Below, in pieces: positions 1 through 5,892 of a stretch of 7,721 bases of DNA; the first letter of the stretch is position 1; every line of letters starts with the position of its first letter. Both the position numbers and the translations under genes were made by a program. This DNA is from a virus (lineage: Duplodnaviria; Heunggongvirae; Uroviricota; Caudoviricetes). Location: the IMG/VR virus record IMGVR_UViG_2711768000_000002; one strand, given 5' to 3'. A model generated the notes under the pieces. That model was not told where the DNA came from. It did no database searches and saw nothing but the letters and a program-made list of their open reading frames with translations.

Positions 1-108
1 CTCCAATGACTAGTCTAAAAACTAGTATTAAGACTATCACTTATTTAAGTGATACTGGTTGTCTGGAGATTCAGGGGGCCAGTCTAGTAAGGCTGCGAGA
101 GGTGAATA

Positions 109-275
109 ATGTCGCCATCATTACGCAAGGCTGTTGCAGTTGCTATTGGTGGCGGGGCTGTTGCTATAGCATCTGTGTTAATCACTGGCCCAGGTGGTAA
201 CGATGGTCTGGAAGGTGTCAGCTACATACTATACAAAGATATCATTGGTGTATGGACTGTATGTCACGGACACAC
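109..275 (+). CDS. SAR-type phage endolysin (T4-lysozyme-like muramidase, P21 R21-like), 5' portion only; 3' end lost in the N-run
   Basis: ATG at 109 preceded by GAGAGG (97-102). Translation [55 protein letters not shown] has a Gly/Ala-rich weakly hydrophobic N-terminal segment (signal-anchor-release type) followed by the E35...D44...T50 spacing that I recall as the catalytic triad of phage P21 R21-like lysozymes. The ORF runs into N at 276. Confidence 0.85.
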
Positions 276-575
276 NNNNNNNNNNNNNNNNNNNNNNNNN
301 NNNNNNNNNNNNNNNNNNNNNNNNNNNNNNNNNNNNNNNNNNNNNNNNNNNNNNNNNNNNNNNNNNNNNNNNNNNNNNNNNNNNNNNNNNNNNNNNNNNN
401 NNNNNNNNNNNNNNNNNNNNNNNNNNNNNNNNNNNNNNNNNNNNNNNNNNNNNNNNNNNNNNNNNNNNNNNNNNNNNNNNNNNNNNNNNNNNNNNNNNNN
501 NNNNNNNNNNNNNNNNNNNNNNNNNNNNNNNNNNNNNNNNNNNNNNNNNNNNNNNNNNNNNNNNNNNNNNNNNNN
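276..575. other. Run of exactly 300 N (assembly gap or masked bases)
   Basis: Directly visible in the sequence; all ORF-track proteins containing X stretches are artefacts of this run. Confidence 0.99.
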
Positions 576-875
576 CAGCGTGATGCTGATGCACTCGATG
601 CTAAATACACGAAGGAGTTAGCTGATGCGAAAGCTGAAAATGATGCTCTTCGGCGCAAGCTTGATAATGGTGGTCGGGTGCTCGTCAAAGGAAAATGCCC
701 TGTGCCATCCTCAGCCGAAACCTCCAGCGCCTCCGGCATGGGCAATGATGCCACCGTCGAACTCTCTCCAGTTGCTGGACGAAACGTTCTCGGTATCCGG
801 GACGGAATCATCAGCGACCAGACAGCATTGAGAATGCTTCAGGAGTACATCAGGATCCAATGCCTTGGGGGGTAG
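576..875 (+). CDS. Rz: Rz-type i-spanin, C-terminal portion (5' end lies in the N-run)
   Basis: Frame-0 translation after the gap, QRDADALDAKYTKELADAKAENDALRRKL..., closely matches the lambda Rz motif (..RDVAALDAKYTKELADAKAENDALR..) as I recall it. Stop TAG at 873-875. An embedded +1 frame lipoprotein gene (Rz1) is the hallmark arrangement. Confidence 0.85.
   Translation, partial: QRDADALDAKYTKELADAKAENDALRRKLDNGGRVLVKGKCPVPSSAETSSASGMGNDATVELSPVAGRNVLGIRDGIISDQTALRMLQEYIRIQCLGG
625..831 (+). CDS. Rz1: Rz1-type o-spanin outer-membrane lipoprotein, embedded in the +1 frame of Rz
   Basis: MRKLKMMLFGASLIMVVGCSSKENALCHPQPKPPAPPAWAMMPP...: signal peptide with lipobox (VVGC), then a proline-rich segment (PKPPAPPAW) resembling lambda Rz1. 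AAGGAG at 611-616 lies 8 nt upstream of the ATG. The gene sits wholly inside Rz in another frame. Confidence 0.8.
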   Translation: MRKLKMMLFGASLIMVVGCSSKENALCHPQPKPPAPPAWAMMPPSNSLQLLDETFSVSGTESSATRQH

Positions 876-963
876 CGGTAATTTTACTCATTATCCTTCA
901 AATCAGATTCTGTTGTCAGAGGAATGGGGGAAGCTGGATTCGCAAGAGCTTTTTATGGGCAGT

Positions 964-1473
964 TTAGCTAAAAAAAGGCAACACGAAGCTAAAACTACCA
1001 ACATAAAGTGCTGACCAGCTAGCAGCTGAAATCAGACTCACTGTATACACTTTCACTGGATGAAGTTGCAACATTCCTGCCACCAAAGGAGCAATATAAC
1101 GCAGCACGGCGATAAAGCGCGAAGTGAAAAGTATTGACACAGAGTTATTTTGCAACTGAAGGCGAACCCGTTCTATTGTATTGGAACGGCTTGATATTAT
1201 ACATGCAAGTTGAGGGATATGCCCAATTATTATACCAAGATGGTAATTAACGATAGTACCGCACCATGCGCCACTCATGACCGTGATTCCAGCTTCCCAT
1301 GGTGAAAGAGTCGTCTTGCTGACTGTAATTACAGTGGCCATCATAATTGATGCTGGTGGCAATATCGCCGAAATGAGTAAAGTGGATTTTGTGAACGCTA
1401 TTATAAAAAGAAGCCCCCATAGGCGATATGGATGAAGTACAAAATAGTTCATCAAAGCATTTATCCACTCCAT
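964..1473 (-). CDS. DedA-family inner membrane protein (SNARE-associated/DedA-like), AT-rich moron on the opposite strand
   Basis: Translation contains GAWCGTIVNYHLGIIIG and FTSRFIAVLRYIAPLVAGM, resembling the conserved DedA motifs (E. coli DedA GDAVNYTIGRLFG and ARFVPIVRTFAPFVAGM as I recall), plus several hydrophobic helices. The ORF track starts at a TTG (1476); I prefer the adjacent ATG (1471-1473), which has AAGGAAAG upstream on the - strand. Sampled 60-bp blocks are ~37% GC here versus ~62% in the head genes. Confidence 0.7.
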   Translation of the reverse strand: MEWINALMNYFVLHPYRLWGLLFIIAFTKSTLLISAILPPASIMMATVITVSKTTLSPWEAGITVMSGAWCGTIVNYHLGIIIGHIPQLACIISSRSNTIERVRLQLQNNSVSILFTSRFIAVLRYIAPLVAGMLQLHPVKVYTVSLISAASWSALYVGSFSFVLPFFS

Positions 1474-1526
1474 CAATGTCTTTCCTTCTGTGAATTTTTC
1501 TTTGCTATTTAACCGTGATACGACTT

Positions 1527-1556
1527 AATTTAGGCTTAAACACCTTACATTTACAA
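1527..1556 (-). promoter_or_regulatory. Candidate sigma70-like promoter for the DedA-family gene (-35 TTGTAA, about 18-bp spacer, -10 TAAATT on the - strand)
   Basis: Hexamers read by eye from the reverse complement of 1527-1556, about 55-85 bp upstream of the ATG; no other support. Confidence 0.2.
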
Positions 1557-1670
1557 GGTACTCCTGTGGGGGGCCCTGCCACGGAGCGTCGCAGGAGTGA
1601 GTGATGAGGAAGAATTAAAGCAACCTATTGTGACAGGCAGCGATAACAGTAAATCACAGGAAGCATAATC

Positions 1671-2435
1671 ATGGCAAAACCGGACTGGGAGGCCATCGAA
1701 TCGGCATACCGGGCCGGAGTCCTTAGCCTCCGTGATATAGGCGAGAAATACGGCGTTACAGAAGGGGCTATCAGGAAGAGGGCCAAAAAGCTTGGTTGGG
1801 CACGCAGTGGCGGTACGCAGGTTTGCAAAAATGGTACGCAAAAAAGGAAAGTGCGTACCAGCAGAAAGCCTGCCATTACTGGCCTTACACAAAAAAGTAC
1901 GCAACTAAAAACAGAATCTACACCGGATACGAAACCGATACGCGGAATGCGTACCGATCCCCCGACTAACCCATTCCAACCCGGTAACCAGCAGGCATTA
2001 AAACACGGTGGTTATGCCCGTCGCCTTCTGCTCAAAGATGAGGTGATAGAGGACGCTAAAGCGTTGACGCTCGAGGACGAATTATTTCGCCTTCGTGCTA
2101 ACAACCTTGTCGCTGCAGAGAATATTGGTCGGTGGTTGGTGTCGCTGGAAGATGCTAATGGGGACCAGGAAAGGAAGATGCTGATTGAAAATATCAGCGC
2201 CGCCGAGAAAGCAATGATGCGCAATACAGTTCGTATTGAGTCCATCGTTGGCACGCTTGCGACGGTAGGAAAAATATTTGCTGATACAGCCTACCGCAAG
2301 GCCGCCACTGATAAGGTGTCTCTGGAGGCTGATCGTCTTCGCCGTGATGCAGGTATTGATGATGGCAATGGAGAGCGTGACCTCAATGACTTCTACTCTG
2401 ACATCCAAACCGACGCTGAATCCGGCTTTACGTAG
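1671..2435 (+). CDS. Phage terminase small subunit (TerS) with N-terminal HTH and an unusually long C-terminal region
   Basis: AGGAAG 6 nt upstream of ATG 1671. The N-terminus MAKPDWEAIESAYRAGVLSLRDIGEKYGVTEGAIRKRAKKLGW is an HTH-like DNA-binding segment, followed by NPFQPGNQQALKHGGY, a motif I associate with small terminase subunits. It sits immediately upstream of the large terminase. Stop TAG at 2433-2435. Confidence 0.75.
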   Translation: MAKPDWEAIESAYRAGVLSLRDIGEKYGVTEGAIRKRAKKLGWARSGGTQVCKNGTQKRKVRTSRKPAITGLTQKSTQLKTESTPDTKPIRGMRTDPPTNPFQPGNQQALKHGGYARRLLLKDEVIEDAKALTLEDELFRLRANNLVAAENIGRWLVSLEDANGDQERKMLIENISAAEKAMMRNTVRIESIVGTLATVGKIFADTAYRKAATDKVSLEADRLRRDAGIDDGNGERDLNDFYSDIQTDAESGFT

Positions 2436-3789
2436 TTTCTGGACTATGCGGGCACGTAACAAAGTGCTTTATGGTGGTCGGTCATCGTCAAAATCATGGG
2501 ATGCCGCTGGCATTGCCATATTTCTGTCGAATAAATACACCCTGCGTTTTTGTTGTGCCCGTCAGATCCAGAATAAAATCGAAGAGTCGGTGTATACCCT
2601 GCTCAAAATTCAGATAGACAGGTTTGGTCTGCGGCACCGTTTCCGTATTCTGAACAACAAAATCATTAACCGGGTTACTGGCTCGGAATTTGTTTTTTAT
2701 GGATTATGGCGCAACATCGAAGAAATTAAGTCACTGGAGGGGATCGATGTGTTGTGGCTGGAAGAAGCCCACGCACTGACGGAATACCAGTGGAAAATTC
2801 TGGAGCCAACGATCCGTAAAGAGGGTTCGGAATGCTGGTTCATATTCAACCCCGGACTTGTTACTGATTTCGTCTGGCGCAACTTCGTTGTTGATCCGCC
2901 CGAAGGCACTCTCATCCGCAAAATTAACTATGACGAAAATCCGTTTCTGTCTGACACCATGCTTAAGGTTATCGACGCGGCGCGACGCCGTGATCCGGAT
3001 GGTTTTAAACATGTGTATGAGGGCGTTCCGGAGTCTGATGATGATGCGGCAATCATCAAACTGTCTTGGATAGAAGCCGCAGTGGATGCGCACAAAACGT
3101 TAAATTTCGAACCCAGTGGAAGAAAGCGTATTGGCTTTGACGTGGCTGACAGTGGTACAGATAAGTGCGCTAACGTTTACCGTCACGGATCCGTTGTTTT
3201 CTGGGCCGACGAATGGAAGGCCAAAGAAGATGAATTACTGAAGAGCTGCCAGCGTACTTATCAGGCGGCGCTGGAGCGTGAAGCAGATATTGTTTACGAC
3301 TCTATCGGTGTTGGTGCGTCTGCCGGTGCTAAATTCTCTGAAATTAACGCTGACCGGAAGAGCGAGAACGCATACGCGCGACGTGTGAATTACCAGAGGT
3401 TTAACGCCGGTGCTGGTGTGCATGAGCCAGATGACGAGTACAACGGCATCCCCAACAAAGACTTTTTCGCAAATCTTAAGGCTCAGGCATGGTGGCTGGT
3501 GGCTGACCGTTTCAGAAATACGTTTAACGCCATTAACAACGGAGAACAGTATCCTGTGGATGAGCTGATCAGCATAGATTCTCGTTGTCCGTTGCTTGAA
3601 AAGCTGAAACTGGAACTGACAACACCTCATCGTGATTTCGACCGTAACGGACGTGTGATGGTCGAAAGTAAAAAAGACCTCGCAAAACGCGAGATACCGT
3701 CACCAAACGTTGCTGATGCATTCATTATGGCCTTCGCGCCAATCGATACATCGCTGGATATCTGGGAACAGCTGGGGAGACAGGCCTGA
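2386..3789 (+). CDS. Phage terminase large subunit (TerL; ATPase plus nuclease)
   Basis: Walker A-like LYGGRSSSKSWD near the N-terminus, Walker B-like VLWLEEAH, and an acidic C-terminal nuclease-type region. The ORF is open from 2278; start chosen at ATG 2386 (GGAGAG at 2370-2375) so the TLNPALRSFW segment is retained. ATG 2359/2362/2368 and 2446 are alternatives. Stop TGA at 3787-3789 overlaps the portal ATG (tgATG). Confidence 0.85.
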   Translation: MTSTLTSKPTLNPALRSFWTMRARNKVLYGGRSSSKSWDAAGIAIFLSNKYTLRFCCARQIQNKIEESVYTLLKIQIDRFGLRHRFRILNNKIINRVTGSEFVFYGLWRNIEEIKSLEGIDVLWLEEAHALTEYQWKILEPTIRKEGSECWFIFNPGLVTDFVWRNFVVDPPEGTLIRKINYDENPFLSDTMLKVIDAARRRDPDGFKHVYEGVPESDDDAAIIKLSWIEAAVDAHKTLNFEPSGRKRIGFDVADSGTDKCANVYRHGSVVFWADEWKAKEDELLKSCQRTYQAALEREADIVYDSIGVGASAGAKFSEINADRKSENAYARRVNYQRFNAGAGVHEPDDEYNGIPNKDFFANLKAQAWWLVADRFRNTFNAINNGEQYPVDELISIDSRCPLLEKLKLELTTPHRDFDRNGRVMVESKKDLAKREIPSPNVADAFIMAFAPIDTSLDIWEQLGRQA

Positions 3790-5255
3790 TGGCACGAAAC
3801 AAACAAGCCCTGCGGCGAACTGTGCAGGCCACAGCTGATGGTTATGAGAATTTTATTGCCCGCGTAGGGATGCAGACACCTAACCAGCACTCAGCATCCA
3901 CCTACCGGGCTAATTTCACCAGTCGTAACCGCATGCTGGTGGAATGGTCCTATCGTTCATCCTAGATCATCGGCGAAGCAGTCGATGCTATCCCGGATGA
4001 TATGACCCGCAAAGGCATTCGCATCACTTCGGAAATTGATGCAAAAGATCGTGGCATTCTCGAATCACAACTGGATGAGTTGCAAATCTGGGATGCGCTG
4101 AATGACGTGCTGAAATGGTCGCGCCTCTACGGCGGCGCGGTGGGTTTCATCATGATTGAGGGGTAGGCACCAATGACCCCGCTGCGACCCGAAACCATCG
4201 GTAAGGGCAAGTTTAAGGGGATTCTCCCGCTCGACCGCTGGATGGTCGACCCGGCACTGACCCGCCGCATTAAAGATATGGGGCCGGACCTGGGTAAACC
4301 TGAGTTTTACGATGTGGTGACCACAGCAACGGGAATTCCTGCCTGGCGCATTCATCACAGTCGCCTGATTCGCTTTGATGGCGTCACGTTGCCATTTCAG
4401 CAGAAGATGACCGAGAACGAATGGGGAATGTCGGTTGTAGAGCGTATCTGGGATCGTCTTACCGCGTTCGACAGCGCTACTGTCGGCGCGGCGCAGCTGG
4501 TCTACAAGGCGCATTTGCGTACCTACAGCGTGGAGAAGCTACGCGAGCTTATCGCACTTGGTGGTCCTGCGTATGAAGCGTTGCTGAAGAATATCGACCT
4601 GATTCGACAGTTCCAGAGTAATGAAGGCATGACGCTCATGGACTCGCGGGATAAGTTTGAAACCCATCAGTACAGCTTCAGTGGTCTGGATGACATCCTT
4701 TCGCAGTTTGTAGAACAGATTAGTGGCGCTGTTGGTATCCCACTGGTGCGGTTGTTCGGACAGTCCCCGAAAGGATTTTCTACCGGTGATGCAGACCTTG
4801 CCAACTATTACGATCGCATCAGTTCGTTGCAGGAGAGGCGTTTACGTCTTCCGGTGCGGCGGATACTGGACATCATGCATCGTTCGGAACTTGGCAAGCC
4901 GCTGCCGGACGATTTCACGTTTGAGTTTAACCCGCTCTGGCAAATGTCTGATGTCGATCGCTCAACGGTGGCGTTAAACACCACCAACGCAATCAGTACG
5001 GCGCTGGGTGATGGTCTGATGACACTGAAAGCCGCTATGACTGATTTGCGAGAAAATTCTGACGTAACCGGCATCGGGGCATCCATTACCGACGAGGACA
5101 TCGAGAATGCCGAAGATGAAGCGCCGCCCGGCATCGGCGAACCTGATGACGAACCGCAGGAGCCGTCAGGCGGAAATCCGGTATCGAACCAGCCTACGCA
5201 GGATAGCGAGGGCGGTCGGAGACATCGTAAATGGTCGCTACGATGGTTCAAATGA
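3789..5255 (+). pseudogene. Phage portal protein gene interrupted by two in-frame TAG (amber) codons at 3963-3965 and 4164-4166; otherwise a continuous 489-codon frame
   Basis: ATG 3789 with GGGGAGA 8 nt upstream. Frame 0 translates MARNKQALRRTVQATADGYENFIARVGMQTPNQHSASTYRANFTSRNRMLVEWSYRSS*IIGEAVDAIPDDMTRKGIRITSEIDAKDRGILESQLDELQIWDALNDVLKWSRLYGGAVGFIMIEG*APMTPLRPETIGKGK... and continues as the 360-aa ORF 4173-5255. All three segments are in one frame and look coding. Its position between TerL and a MuF-like gene is the canonical portal position. Confidence 0.75.
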
Positions 5256-5889
5256 CAGTATCACGGAAATTATTGCGGCGCTGGAGCGTTACAGTGAAAT
5301 CATCACCCCCTGGGCGACAAAGGTCGCGGAAAACTTTACTGCGGACCTAACCCGGCAGAACGAGAAAGTTTGGCGGCAACACAGCAAGAACATCAGTCGC
5401 GAGCTCCGCAATCTTGTGGAAAGCGCTCCTGTGGGCCAGGTGATGCAATCCATCATCGCCGAACAGGTCAAGTACATCAAATCTCTGCCTCTCGAGGCCG
5501 CAGACAGGGTGTACGACATCCAGAACAAAGCGATAGAGGCTGTTGTCACCGGTGGTCGGGCGGAGCAGTTTGCTAAAGAGATTGCATCTACCGGCGATGT
5601 TGCTAAGTCTAGGGCCGATCTGATTGCCCGAACGGAACTGGGAAGAGCAACGGGCGCGCTGGATATGGCCCGAGCGATAGCTATTGGCTCGGATGGTTAT
5701 ATTTGGCGTACAGCCGATGATGGCGATGTCCGAGATTCCCACGATCACATGAAAGGTAAATTCGTCCGCTGGGATTCACCTCCAACTTTGGACGGCATGA
5801 CCGGCCACGCGGGCGAGCTGCCAAACTGCCGCTGCTATAAAGAGATCGTGTTTGTTCGCGTTCCATTCGCAATGAAAAGGGCAGCATAA
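5107..5889 (+). CDS. Phage head morphogenesis protein, Mu gpF / SPP1 gp7 family (minor head protein)
   Basis: C-terminal region ...WRTADDGDVRDSHDHMKGKFVRWDSPPTLDGMTGHAGELPNCRCY matches the conserved Mu F-like domain signature (His pair and CRC) as I know it, and the gene follows the portal as in SPP1-like head modules. GAGGA lies 8 nt upstream of ATG 5107; ATG 5116 and 5146 are alternative starts. The 5' end overlaps the portal 3' end in another frame. Confidence 0.8.
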   Translation: MPKMKRRPASANLMTNRRSRQAEIRYRTSLRRIARAVGDIVNGRYDGSNDSITEIIAALERYSEIITPWATKVAENFTADLTRQNEKVWRQHSKNISRELRNLVESAPVGQVMQSIIAEQVKYIKSLPLEAADRVYDIQNKAIEAVVTGGRAEQFAKEIASTGDVAKSRADLIARTELGRATGALDMARAIAIGSDGYIWRTADDGDVRDSHDHMKGKFVRWDSPPTLDGMTGHAGELPNCRCYKEIVFVRVPFAMKRAA

Positions 5890-5892
5890 CCC

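What the first reader, a model, noticed from the sequence alone, without database searches (positions are those of the whole stretch)
3789..5255. Portal gene is open for 489 codons except for two in-frame amber (TAG) codons
Seen directly: frame 0 from ATG 3789 to TGA 5255 has exactly two stops, both TAG (3963-3965 after ..EWSYRSS; 4164-4166 after ..FIMIEG), with no frameshift and coding-looking sequence on both sides. Most likely these are recent nonsense mutations (for example TGG or CAG to TAG transitions) in a decaying prophage. Alternatives are amber suppression by a host or phage suppressor tRNA, or sequencing errors. Both lesions being the same stop codon, both in the first quarter of the gene, with neighbouring genes intact, merits a second look.
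Basis: partly seen in the sequence, partly recalled or inferred. Interest (0 to 1): 0.65.

Follow-up and report, generated by a model that had tools for sequence, protein, structure and literature searches.

The report
Dead portal gene in Shigella prophage remnant
The two in-frame TAG codons are real nonsense mutations (Trp59 and Gln126 to stop) in the portal gene of an insertion-sequence-truncated prophage remnant carried by every Shigella sonnei copy examined, which is ordinary gene decay.

Summary
Frame 1 of 3789-5255 is open for 489 codons except TAG at 3963-3965 and 4164-4166. The gene is a portal: Pfam Phage_portal_3 E=3e-106, PHROG portal E=1e-174, and a match to the solved Pam3 portal.

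Three E. coli prophages are 99.8% identical and carry an intact 488-aa portal, with TGG and CAG at the two sites. Each TAG is therefore a single G:C>A:T transition.

The window is 100% identical to Shigella sonnei chromosomes such as 53G. It is an IS-bounded contig: an IS2 end at 1-86, which interrupts the holin gene, and an IS1 end at 7639-7721, which cuts the major capsid gene after 4 nt. Chromosomal genes follow, so this locus has no capsid or tail module.

The truncated products occur in over 2,500 assembly blocks, so sequencing error is excluded. I found no CUA-anticodon tRNA in the window or within 10 kb.

The lineage-specific changes are 3 synonymous, 7 missense and 2 nonsense, which fits neutral decay. 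Two stops, both TAG, is within chance (P about 0.05-0.11 for two or more stops; TAG is 56% of transition-derived stops).

This is an ordinary pseudogene whose fragments are already annotated publicly. One item stays open: whether S. dysenteriae shares the second stop.

The parts
1..86 (-). Terminal 86 bases of an IS2 copy inserted in the 3' end of the phage holin gene.
   Evidence: 100% match to the IS2 annotated in FDAARGOS_943 (annotation). In S. sonnei chromosomes the full IS2 (transposase on the minus strand) lies here, flanked by a 5-bp GTAAG duplication, so it is a simple insertion.
87..109 (+). Last 23 bases of the class II holin gene. Bases 87-91 (GTAAG) are the IS2 target-site duplication.
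   Evidence: Aligns to L003 11314-11336, the holin 3' end.
109..275 (+). 5' part of the endolysin gene (RrrD-type lysozyme), which runs into the N-mask. It carries the lineage-specific P41L change at 230.
   Evidence: Annotation of relatives, Pfam Phage_lysozyme in the source genomes and the substitution table.
276..575 (.). Run of 300 N that stands for 498 real bases: the rest of the endolysin gene and the start of Rz. Both genes are open in the unmasked genomes.
   Evidence: Window 275 corresponds to L008 5905 and window 576 to L008 6404. The 7,919-bp draft contig L022 equals the window plus 198 bases.
576..875 (+). 3' part of the Rz-type lysis gene, with the lineage-specific A60D change at 583.
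964..1476 (-). DedA-family membrane protein gene. It is cargo on the opposite strand and carries only a synonymous change.
   Evidence: Annotation WP_011069285.1, Pfam VTT_dom.
1671..2435 (+). Terminase small subunit gene. It is open, with one synonymous change.
   Evidence: phrog_370 terminase small subunit, E=7.5e-95.
2386..3789 (+). Terminase large subunit gene. It is open, with one synonymous change.
   Evidence: Pfam Terminase_3, E=3.9e-38; PBSX-family terminase annotation.
3789..5255 (+). Portal gene, now a pseudogene. It is 488 codons plus a stop, with three lineage-specific changes: W59*, Q126* and A308V.
   Evidence: Pfam PF06381, E=3.3e-106 on the intact orthologue; phrog_146 portal, E=1.4e-174; Pam3 portal 8hds, E=2.2e-37.
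3963..3965 (+). First amber codon: TGG>TAG (G>A at 3964), Trp59>stop.
   Evidence: L002, L003 and L004 all have G at this base. L023 and L024 read TGG. The Trp is conserved in the Pam3 portal alignment.
4164..4166 (+). Second amber codon: CAG>TAG (C>T at 4164), Gln126>stop.
   Evidence: L002, L003 and L004 all have C at this base. L023 and L024 read CAG.
5146..5889 (+). Head-morphogenesis (Mu F-like) gene. It is open and overlaps the portal 3' end by 110 nt.
   Evidence: Pfam Phage_Mu_F, E=1.9e-18; annotation.
5893..7113 (+). DUF2213 gene, a head maturation protease or scaffold-like protein. It is open, with the S403N change at 7100.
   Evidence: Pfam DUF2213; PHROG head maturation protease families.
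7117..7623 (+). Capsid cement / minor capsid gene (E217 gp24 / Pam3 gp6 type). It is open.
   Evidence: Pfam Phage_cement and XM1_gp53_minor_capsid.
7635..7638 (+). First 4 bases (ATGA) of the major capsid (DUF2184) gene. The rest of the gene is missing at this locus.
   Evidence: L003 DUF2184 starts at 19060, which is window 7635. Similarity to all relatives ends at 7638.
7639..7721 (+). Terminal 83 bases of IS1. In the genome it is followed by chromosomal genes rather than phage genes.
   Evidence: 100% match to annotated IS1A copies. This stretch matches in 5,329 of 5,426 E. coli genomes. Downstream genes are lactonase, LysR, aconitase-family and pectinesterase. DNA after IS1 does not match the relatives' capsid gene.

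Best explanation
The window is a prophage remnant in the chromosome of Shigella sonnei. The ancestor was a lambdoid-early / Pam3-E217-like-head myovirus prophage that is still intact in some E. coli. In the S. sonnei lineage it lost the ability to make particles. IS2 landed in the holin gene. An IS1-associated rearrangement removed the major capsid gene and everything downstream from this locus. With selection on the structural genes gone, point mutations accumulated at random. Two of them were ordinary G:C>A:T transitions that turned Trp59 (TGG) and Gln126 (CAG) of the portal into amber stops. Translation now ends after 58 residues, so no portal ring can form. The 54-aa and 360-aa downstream ORFs are by-products of gene calling, not genes. 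Shown here: the identity of the gene, the ancestral codons, the IS boundaries, the absence of capsid and tail genes at the locus, presence of both TAGs in all sampled S. sonnei copies, and a substitution pattern with no sign of purifying selection. Inferred: the order of events and the neutrality of the two stops.
For: Two TAGs in an otherwise open 489-codon frame. The portal identity is supported by Pfam PF06381 (E=3.3e-106), with the fragments mapping collinearly at profile positions 24-76 and 84-355, by phrog_146 portal (E=1.4e-174), and by the solved Pam3 portal 8hds (E=2.2e-37), in which Trp59 is conserved. Three 99.8%-identical E. coli prophages have an intact 488-aa portal, WP_000113499.1, with G at 3964 and C at 4164, which gives TGG>TAG and CAG>TAG. 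The window is 100% identical to S. sonnei chromosomes, including HE616528.1; that accession is used as an S. sonnei reference in the literature, and the products are named as S. sonnei proteins. IS2 sits at 1-86 with a GTAAG duplication, IS1 sits at 7639-7721 four bases into the capsid gene, and chromosomal genes follow. There are 12 lineage-specific substitutions: 8 G:C>A:T, with 3 synonymous, 7 missense and 2 nonsense. P(at least 2 stops) is 0.05-0.11, and TAG accounts for 56% of the stops such transitions can create here. Neither TAG 81-mer occurs at 100% identity in 5,426 complete E. coli genomes. Sister copies decay independently by other lesions. Nonsense mutations, deletions and IS are the documented routes of Shigella genome degradation (PMC7373316).
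Against: Two stops among 12 changes, both in one gene, is slightly more than the average expectation (P about 0.05-0.11 for at least two stops, times 0.18 for the same gene), although these are post-hoc statistics. S. dysenteriae Sd197/1617 has a 360-aa ORF that starts at the same Met129. If its lesion is the same CAG>TAG, the history is more complex than private decay within S. sonnei. I did not scan the whole S. sonnei genome for a suppressor tRNA, or for the missing capsid and tail genes, which an IS1-mediated inversion could have moved elsewhere.
Confidence: 0.93

Rival explanations
1. Amber suppression: a host or phage suppressor tRNA reads both TAGs, so a full-length portal is still made and the gene is conditionally functional.
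For: Both stops are the same codon. The flanking coding sequence has so far acquired only one missense change. Relatives carry a tRNA cluster upstream of the lysis genes.
Against: There is no tRNA in the window. Within 10 kb in S. sonnei there is at most one tRNA, with a CAT anticodon. The relatives' cluster has CAT, TCT, TGT and TCC anticodons, none of them CUA. All close relatives have sense codons at both sites. The holin gene is IS2-disrupted and the capsid gene is cut after 4 nt, with no tail genes at the locus, so a read-through portal would have nothing to assemble with. TAG is simply the commonest product of G:C>A:T nonsense transitions here, at 56%.
Confidence: 0.01
2. Sequencing or assembly error: the true sequence has sense codons at one or both sites.
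For: Each lesion is a single-base difference from close relatives.
Against: Identical TAGs occur in nine independently assembled chromosomes and four IMG/VR contigs. The exact 360-aa and 54-aa truncated products are indexed in 2,576 and 2,758 assembly blocks. Separate submitters have annotated them as S. sonnei proteins, including UniProt Q3Z426.
Confidence: 0.003
3. Selected inactivation: loss of the portal was favoured in Shigella, for example to stop a leaky prophage from killing its host. The early stops would then be adaptive, possibly convergent or shared between S. sonnei and S. dysenteriae.
For: Two of 12 lineage-specific changes are stops, both early in one gene. S. dysenteriae has an ORF starting at the same Met129, with its own private substitutions and without A308V. 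An exact 125-aa product (W59 intact, ending at G125) exists on 3 contigs, consistent with a stepwise history in which TAG2 came first.
Against: The statistics are within chance and post hoc. A second stop adds nothing once the first exists. The IS lesions alone already disable lysis and capsid formation. Related copies in E. coli are broken by many different lesions in different genes, as drift predicts. S. flexneri, and one S. dysenteriae-labelled fragment, keep W59, and S. flexneri keeps Q126. I never saw the S. dysenteriae lesion itself.
Confidence: 0.05

Closest known systems
Portal proteins of the Pfam PF06381 (Phage_portal_3, formerly DUF1073) / TIGR01555 HI1409 family, with solved examples Pam3 (8hds) and E217 gp19 (8fvh)
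   Same: The profile match is far above threshold. The gene sits directly after the large terminase gene and before the Mu F-like, protease/scaffold and cement genes. Trp59 is conserved in Pam3.
   Different: The reading frame is broken at codons 59 and 126, so no functional portal can be made. The orthologue WP_000113499.1 in E. coli is intact.
Pseudogenes and IS-bounded prophage remnants of Shigella genomes (genome degradation as described by Hawkey et al. 2020, PMC7373316)
   Same: IS1 and IS2 form the boundaries, an IS-associated event removed adjacent genes, and nonsense mutations sit in the genes left behind. The lesions are present in every sampled genome of the species.
   Different: Nothing of substance. 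This is one more instance of the pattern, and I did not find this locus discussed in the papers I searched.
Laboratory amber (sus/am) mutants of phage head genes, propagated on supE/supF hosts
   Same: TAG codons created by G:C>A:T transitions at Trp and Gln codons, which is the classic spectrum.
   Different: This copy sits in thousands of natural clinical isolates, in a prophage that also lacks capsid and tail genes at the locus. I found no suppressor tRNA nearby.

Membership tests
Phage portal protein, Pfam PF06381 Phage_portal_3 (DUF1073; TIGR01555 HI1409 family) | Profile match above the curated threshold | tested here: met
   The intact orthologue scores 355 bits against a cut-off of 33.8. 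Window fragments score 40.0 bits (54 aa) and 274.5 bits (360 aa). TIGR01555 scores 255 bits against a cut-off of 196. phrog_146 portal, E=1.4e-174.
Phage portal protein, Pfam PF06381 Phage_portal_3 (DUF1073; TIGR01555 HI1409 family) | Sequence homology to portals with a solved dodecameric structure | tested here: met
   Pam3 portal 8hds, E=2.2e-37 over residues 15-413. Also 9jlf, 9l01, and E217 gp19 (8fvh, 9b41). I did not predict a fold, because sequence evidence was sufficient.
Phage portal protein, Pfam PF06381 Phage_portal_3 (DUF1073; TIGR01555 HI1409 family) | Position in the head module, immediately downstream of the large terminase gene | tested here: met
   The terL stop overlaps the portal ATG at 3789. 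The Mu F-like, DUF2213 and cement genes follow.
Phage portal protein, Pfam PF06381 Phage_portal_3 (DUF1073; TIGR01555 HI1409 family) | Uninterrupted reading frame encoding the full protein | tested here: not met
   TAG at codons 59 and 126. It is a pseudogene of this family, not a functional member.
Pseudogene in a defective prophage | In-frame stops where close orthologues have sense codons | tested here: met
   TGG and CAG in L002, L003, L004, L023 and L024. No 100% match to either TAG 81-mer in 5,426 E. coli genomes.
Pseudogene in a defective prophage | Lesions are real and heritable, i.e. seen in independent assemblies | tested here: met
Pseudogene in a defective prophage | Other essential phage functions lost at the locus | tested here: met
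   The holin gene is split by IS2. The capsid gene is cut after 4 nt by IS1, and chromosomal genes follow. I could not check whether the missing genes survive elsewhere in the genome.
Pseudogene in a defective prophage | Relaxed selection on the remaining genes | tested here: inconclusive
   9 non-synonymous changes (including the 2 nonsense) against 3 synonymous equals the neutral expectation of roughly 3:1. Twelve substitutions are too few for a formal test.
Suppressor-dependent (amber-recoded) phage gene | A tRNA with a CUA anticodon in the phage or host | tested here: not met
   None in the window, none within 10 kb in four S. sonnei chromosomes, and none in the relatives' tRNA cluster. 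The whole host genome could not be scanned with these tools.
Suppressor-dependent (amber-recoded) phage gene | TAG retained at the same positions in viable relatives | tested here: not met
   The four Escherichia phages at 98% DNA identity have this gene annotated as one uninterrupted CDS, and their product aligns end to end with the intact protein at 98.8% identity. All prophage relatives have sense codons.

The most novel reading that the evidence does not exclude
The second stop (Gln126>TAG) may be older than S. sonnei and shared with S. dysenteriae type 1, whose 360-aa ORF starts at the same Met129. That would mean either that an already-defective prophage segment moved between Shigella lineages by recombination, or that portal knock-out arose convergently under selection during the parallel host adaptation of Shigella.
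Probability: 0.06. Interest if true: 0.3.

Novelty: already known. Interest (0 to 1): 0.06.

Why it matters
It matters very little biologically. This is a textbook example of how a prophage dies in a genome undergoing IS expansion and reductive evolution.

It has two practical consequences.

First, the three ORF fragments are deposited as separate 'bacteriophage proteins' in UniProt and NCBI. At least one PHROG 'family of unknown function' (phrog_28295) has a 54-position profile that matches exactly the piece between the two TAGs. Pseudogene debris is therefore seeding protein-family databases.

Second, the window shows that a short contig ending in IS fragments should be read as a repeat-bounded draft contig before any gene-level oddity in it is interpreted.

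Tried and rejected
1. **Vector idea.** From memory, the last 83 bases looked like the pACYC184/p15A region, which suggested an engineered plasmid with deliberate amber mutations. I rejected this. The stretch is the IS1 end that pACYC184 also carries. It matches in 5,329 of 5,426 E. coli genomes and annotated IS1A copies.

2. **Source genome in the species-representative collection.** The TAG1 51-mer found nothing. A degenerate site-2 pattern found only S. flexneri SFBU1023 and E. coli ECMA0423, both with sense codons.

3. **Single-TAG intermediates.** IMG/VR scans for each TAG returned the same four contigs, all carrying both TAGs and all 100% identical to the window. The metagenome scan for TAG2 found nothing.

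4. **S. dysenteriae DNA.** The N-terminal homologue search returned only fragment clusters, none clearly from Sd197.

5. **Exact-sequence tests of hypothetical products.** The 125-aa product (stop at codon 126, W59 intact) exists on 3 Logan contigs. The 123-aa alternative does not exist.

6. **Not done.** I did not run structure prediction or fold search, because sequence evidence for portal identity was already decisive.
Full report
**1. The observation**

Translating window 3789-5255 in frame gives 489 codons. There are exactly two internal stops, both TAG. One is at 3963-3965 after ...EWSYRSS and the other at 4164-4166 after ...FIMIEG. The terminal TGA is at 5253-5255. Mechanically the frame falls into ORFs of 58, 54 and 360 aa. 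The description is accurate.

**2. What the gene is**

The intact orthologue matches Pfam PF06381 (Phage_portal_3, formerly DUF1073) with E=3.3e-106 over residues 55-402. The window's 54-aa and 360-aa fragments hit the same profile collinearly, at positions 24-76 and 84-355, so they are pieces of one gene.

- PHROGs gives phrog_146 'portal protein', E=1.4e-174.
- NCBIfam gives TIGR01555, the HI1409 family.
- The solved Pam3 portal (8hds) matches at E=2.2e-37, and E217 gp19 (8fvh) also matches.

The neighbours fit a head module:

- terminase small subunit (phrog_370) and large subunit (Terminase_3) upstream;
- a Mu F-like head-morphogenesis gene, DUF2213 (protease/scaffold-like) and a cement/minor-capsid gene downstream.

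**3. Where the window comes from**

The two ends are not phage DNA.

- **Left end.** Window 1-86 is a 100% match to an IS2 end.
- **Right end.** Window 7639-7721 is a 100% match to an IS1 end. This stretch is why 5,329 of 5,426 E. coli genomes 'match' the window. I first suspected a p15A cloning vector from memory; that was wrong, because the shared sequence is IS1.

An exact-sequence look-up of the 360-aa product found it in 2,576 assembly blocks. Ten chromosomes were shown, including HE616528.1. Six of them are 100% identical to every unmasked base of the window.

HE616528 is used as a Shigella sonnei reference in the literature. The three fragments are deposited as S. sonnei proteins, for example UniProt Q3Z426_SHISS.

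A 7,919-bp draft contig (L022) has the same content. The window is therefore effectively a whole repeat-bounded contig. Its 300-N run (276-575) replaces 498 real bases, which hold the rest of the endolysin gene and the start of Rz. Both genes are open in the unmasked genomes.

**4. State of the prophage**

- **IS2.** It is a simple insertion with a 5-bp GTAAG duplication, 18 bases before the end of the holin gene.
- **IS1.** It begins after the 4th base of the major capsid (DUF2184) gene; the ATG is at 7635.
- **Beyond IS1.** The DNA does not match the relatives' capsid gene. The next genes are a lactonase, a LysR regulator, another IS1, an aconitase-family protein and a pectinesterase. From memory this is the pgl-ybhD...ybhJ-ybhC backbone of E. 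coli; I did not test that.

In the intact relatives about 12 kb or more of capsid, neck, tail and baseplate genes follow at this point. The S. sonnei copy is a remnant that cannot build a particle from this locus.

**5. What the TAGs were**

Three E. coli chromosomes (FDAARGOS_943, FDAARGOS_944 and VL40) are 99.8% identical to the window. They annotate the portal as one intact 488-aa protein, WP_000113499.1.

Ungapped comparison shows G at 3964 and C at 4164 in all three. The changes are therefore TGG(Trp59)>TAG and CAG(Gln126)>TAG, each a single G:C>A:T transition.

Two further species-representative genomes also read TGG and CAG: S. flexneri SFBU1023 and E. coli ECMA0423. Neither TAG-bearing 81-mer occurs at 100% identity in 5,426 complete E. 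coli genomes, although 275-335 of those genomes carry the region.

Trp59 is conserved as far as the roughly 30%-identical Pam3 portal. Gln126 also aligns with a Gln there, but is not conserved in the 9jlf portal.

**6. Is the pattern more than chance?**

Using the unmasked chromosome, the S. sonnei lineage has 12 private substitutions in 7,750 bp. Eight are G:C>A:T transitions.

| Class | Count |
|---|---|
| Synonymous | 3 |
| Missense | 7 |
| Nonsense | 2 |

A ratio of 9 non-synonymous to 3 synonymous is what unconstrained DNA gives. Twelve events are too few for a formal test.

Of all G:C>A:T transitions possible in these genes, 4.8% create a stop, and 56% of those stops are TAG.

| Quantity | Value |
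|---|---|
| P(at least 2 stops), 8 transitions | 0.054 |
| P(at least 2 stops), all 12 changes | 0.11 |
| P(both stops TAG) | 0.31 |
| P(both stops in one gene) | 0.18 |

These are post-hoc figures. None of them calls for a special mechanism. 'Both amber' is simply the likeliest outcome of this mutation spectrum on Trp and Gln codons.

**7. Alternatives**

- **Sequencing error.** This is excluded by replication across thousands of assemblies and several technologies.
- **Suppression.** ARAGORN finds no tRNA in the window. Within 10 kb in S. sonnei there is at most one tRNA, with a CAT anticodon. The relatives' cluster reads CAT, TCT, TGT and TCC. I could not scan the whole genome. The point is moot, however, because the locus lacks capsid and tail genes and has a broken holin gene.
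- **Engineered amber mutant.** This is excluded, because the allele sits in natural isolates.
- **Selected inactivation.** This cannot be strictly excluded. A second stop is redundant, though, and sister copies are broken by unrelated lesions. FDAARGOS_943 has IS2 in terL and an internal stop in the Mu F-like gene. E. coli genomes hold frameshifted portal pieces. That is the signature of drift.

**8. An open thread**

The 90%-identity cluster of the 360-aa product contains a 360-aa protein from S. dysenteriae Sd197 and 1617 (P0003). It starts at the same Met129. It has four private substitutions and keeps the ancestral Ala308.

Three pipelines call that start rather than Met72 or Met1, so a stop or disruption probably lies just upstream. 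It could be the same CAG>TAG.

Other observations bear on this:

- A 103-aa N-terminal partial named for both S. flexneri and S. dysenteriae keeps Trp59, and the S. flexneri partials keep Gln126.
- An exact 125-aa product (Met1-Gly125 with Trp59) exists on three Logan contigs. The 123-aa alternative does not exist.

That suggests genomes exist with only the second stop, so Q126* probably preceded W59*. This is inference; I never saw the DNA.

**9. Comparison with what is known, and verdict**

The gene is a pseudogenised member of the PF06381 portal family. The locus is a typical IS-bounded prophage remnant of a Shigella genome. In such genomes, deletions, nonsense mutations and IS are the documented routes of degradation, and reference chromosomes carry 229-348 IS copies (PMC7373316).

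The fragments are already in public annotation. The finding is real but ordinary.

Noticed in passing
window 276-575: The 300-N run is not length-preserving. It replaces 498 real bases (L008 5906-6403) that hold the rest of the endolysin gene and the first 57 codons of Rz. Both genes are open in the real genome. The hidden stretch contains three more S. sonnei-specific missense changes: endolysin D127Y and R136C, and Rz C18R.
   Followed up: yes
window 1-86 and 7639-7721: The window begins inside IS2 and ends inside IS1, so it is a repeat-bounded draft contig. The 7,919-bp contig L022 equals the window plus the 198 bases compressed by the mask. The right end resembles the pACYC184 backbone only because that vector carries an IS1 fragment.
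   Followed up: yes
portal residues 72-125 (window 4002-4163); PHROGs phrog_28295, phrog_12751, phrog_15615: PHROGs contains 'families' that are pieces of this portal. phrog_28295 (unknown function) is a 54-position profile that matches exactly the ORF between the two TAGs, with E=2.4e-40. Pseudogene fragments seem to have seeded protein families there, and also UniRef entries, one of which is named 'Alpha/beta hydrolase'.
   Followed up: partly
RefSeq annotation of orthologues (e.g. NZ_CP029371.1, NZ_CP148474.1): The same DUF1073 portal protein is named 'anti-CBASS protein Acb1 family protein' in some RefSeq records and 'DUF1073 domain-containing protein' in others. Pfam, PHROGs and solved structures all identify it as a portal. 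The Acb1 label looks like a naming artefact.
   Followed up: partly
S. dysenteriae Sd197/1617 protein P0003 (ABB62211.1); Logan protein P0114: S. dysenteriae has a 360-aa portal ORF starting at the same Met129 as in S. sonnei, with its own private substitutions. An exact 125-aa product (W59 intact, ending at G125) exists on 3 Logan contigs. A stop at codon 126 shared with S. sonnei, or a parallel one, is possible. I could not reach the DNA.
   Followed up: partly
L002 (E. coli FDAARGOS_943) 10595-15434: A 99.8%-identical sister prophage is decaying by different lesions. It has IS2 inside the large terminase gene and an internal stop in the Mu F-like head-morphogenesis gene, while its portal is intact.
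   Followed up: partly
L028 (IMGVR_UViG_2734482572_000004) 7645-7804: This contig is 100% identical to window 576-7721, but the 5' part of its endolysin gene is only 88.75% identical to window 116-275. Its left arm therefore differs, either through recombination with another lambdoid prophage or through mis-assembly.
   Followed up: no
window 964-1476, minus strand: A DedA-family membrane protein gene sits on the opposite strand between the lysis and terminase genes. It is typical phage cargo (a moron). It carries only a synonymous change in S. sonnei and may be the one gene in the remnant still in use.
   Followed up: no
window 5146-5255: The Mu F-like head-morphogenesis gene, as annotated in relatives, overlaps the last 110 nt of the portal gene in another frame. 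Gene callers disagree on its start, giving either 247 aa or 152 aa.
   Followed up: no
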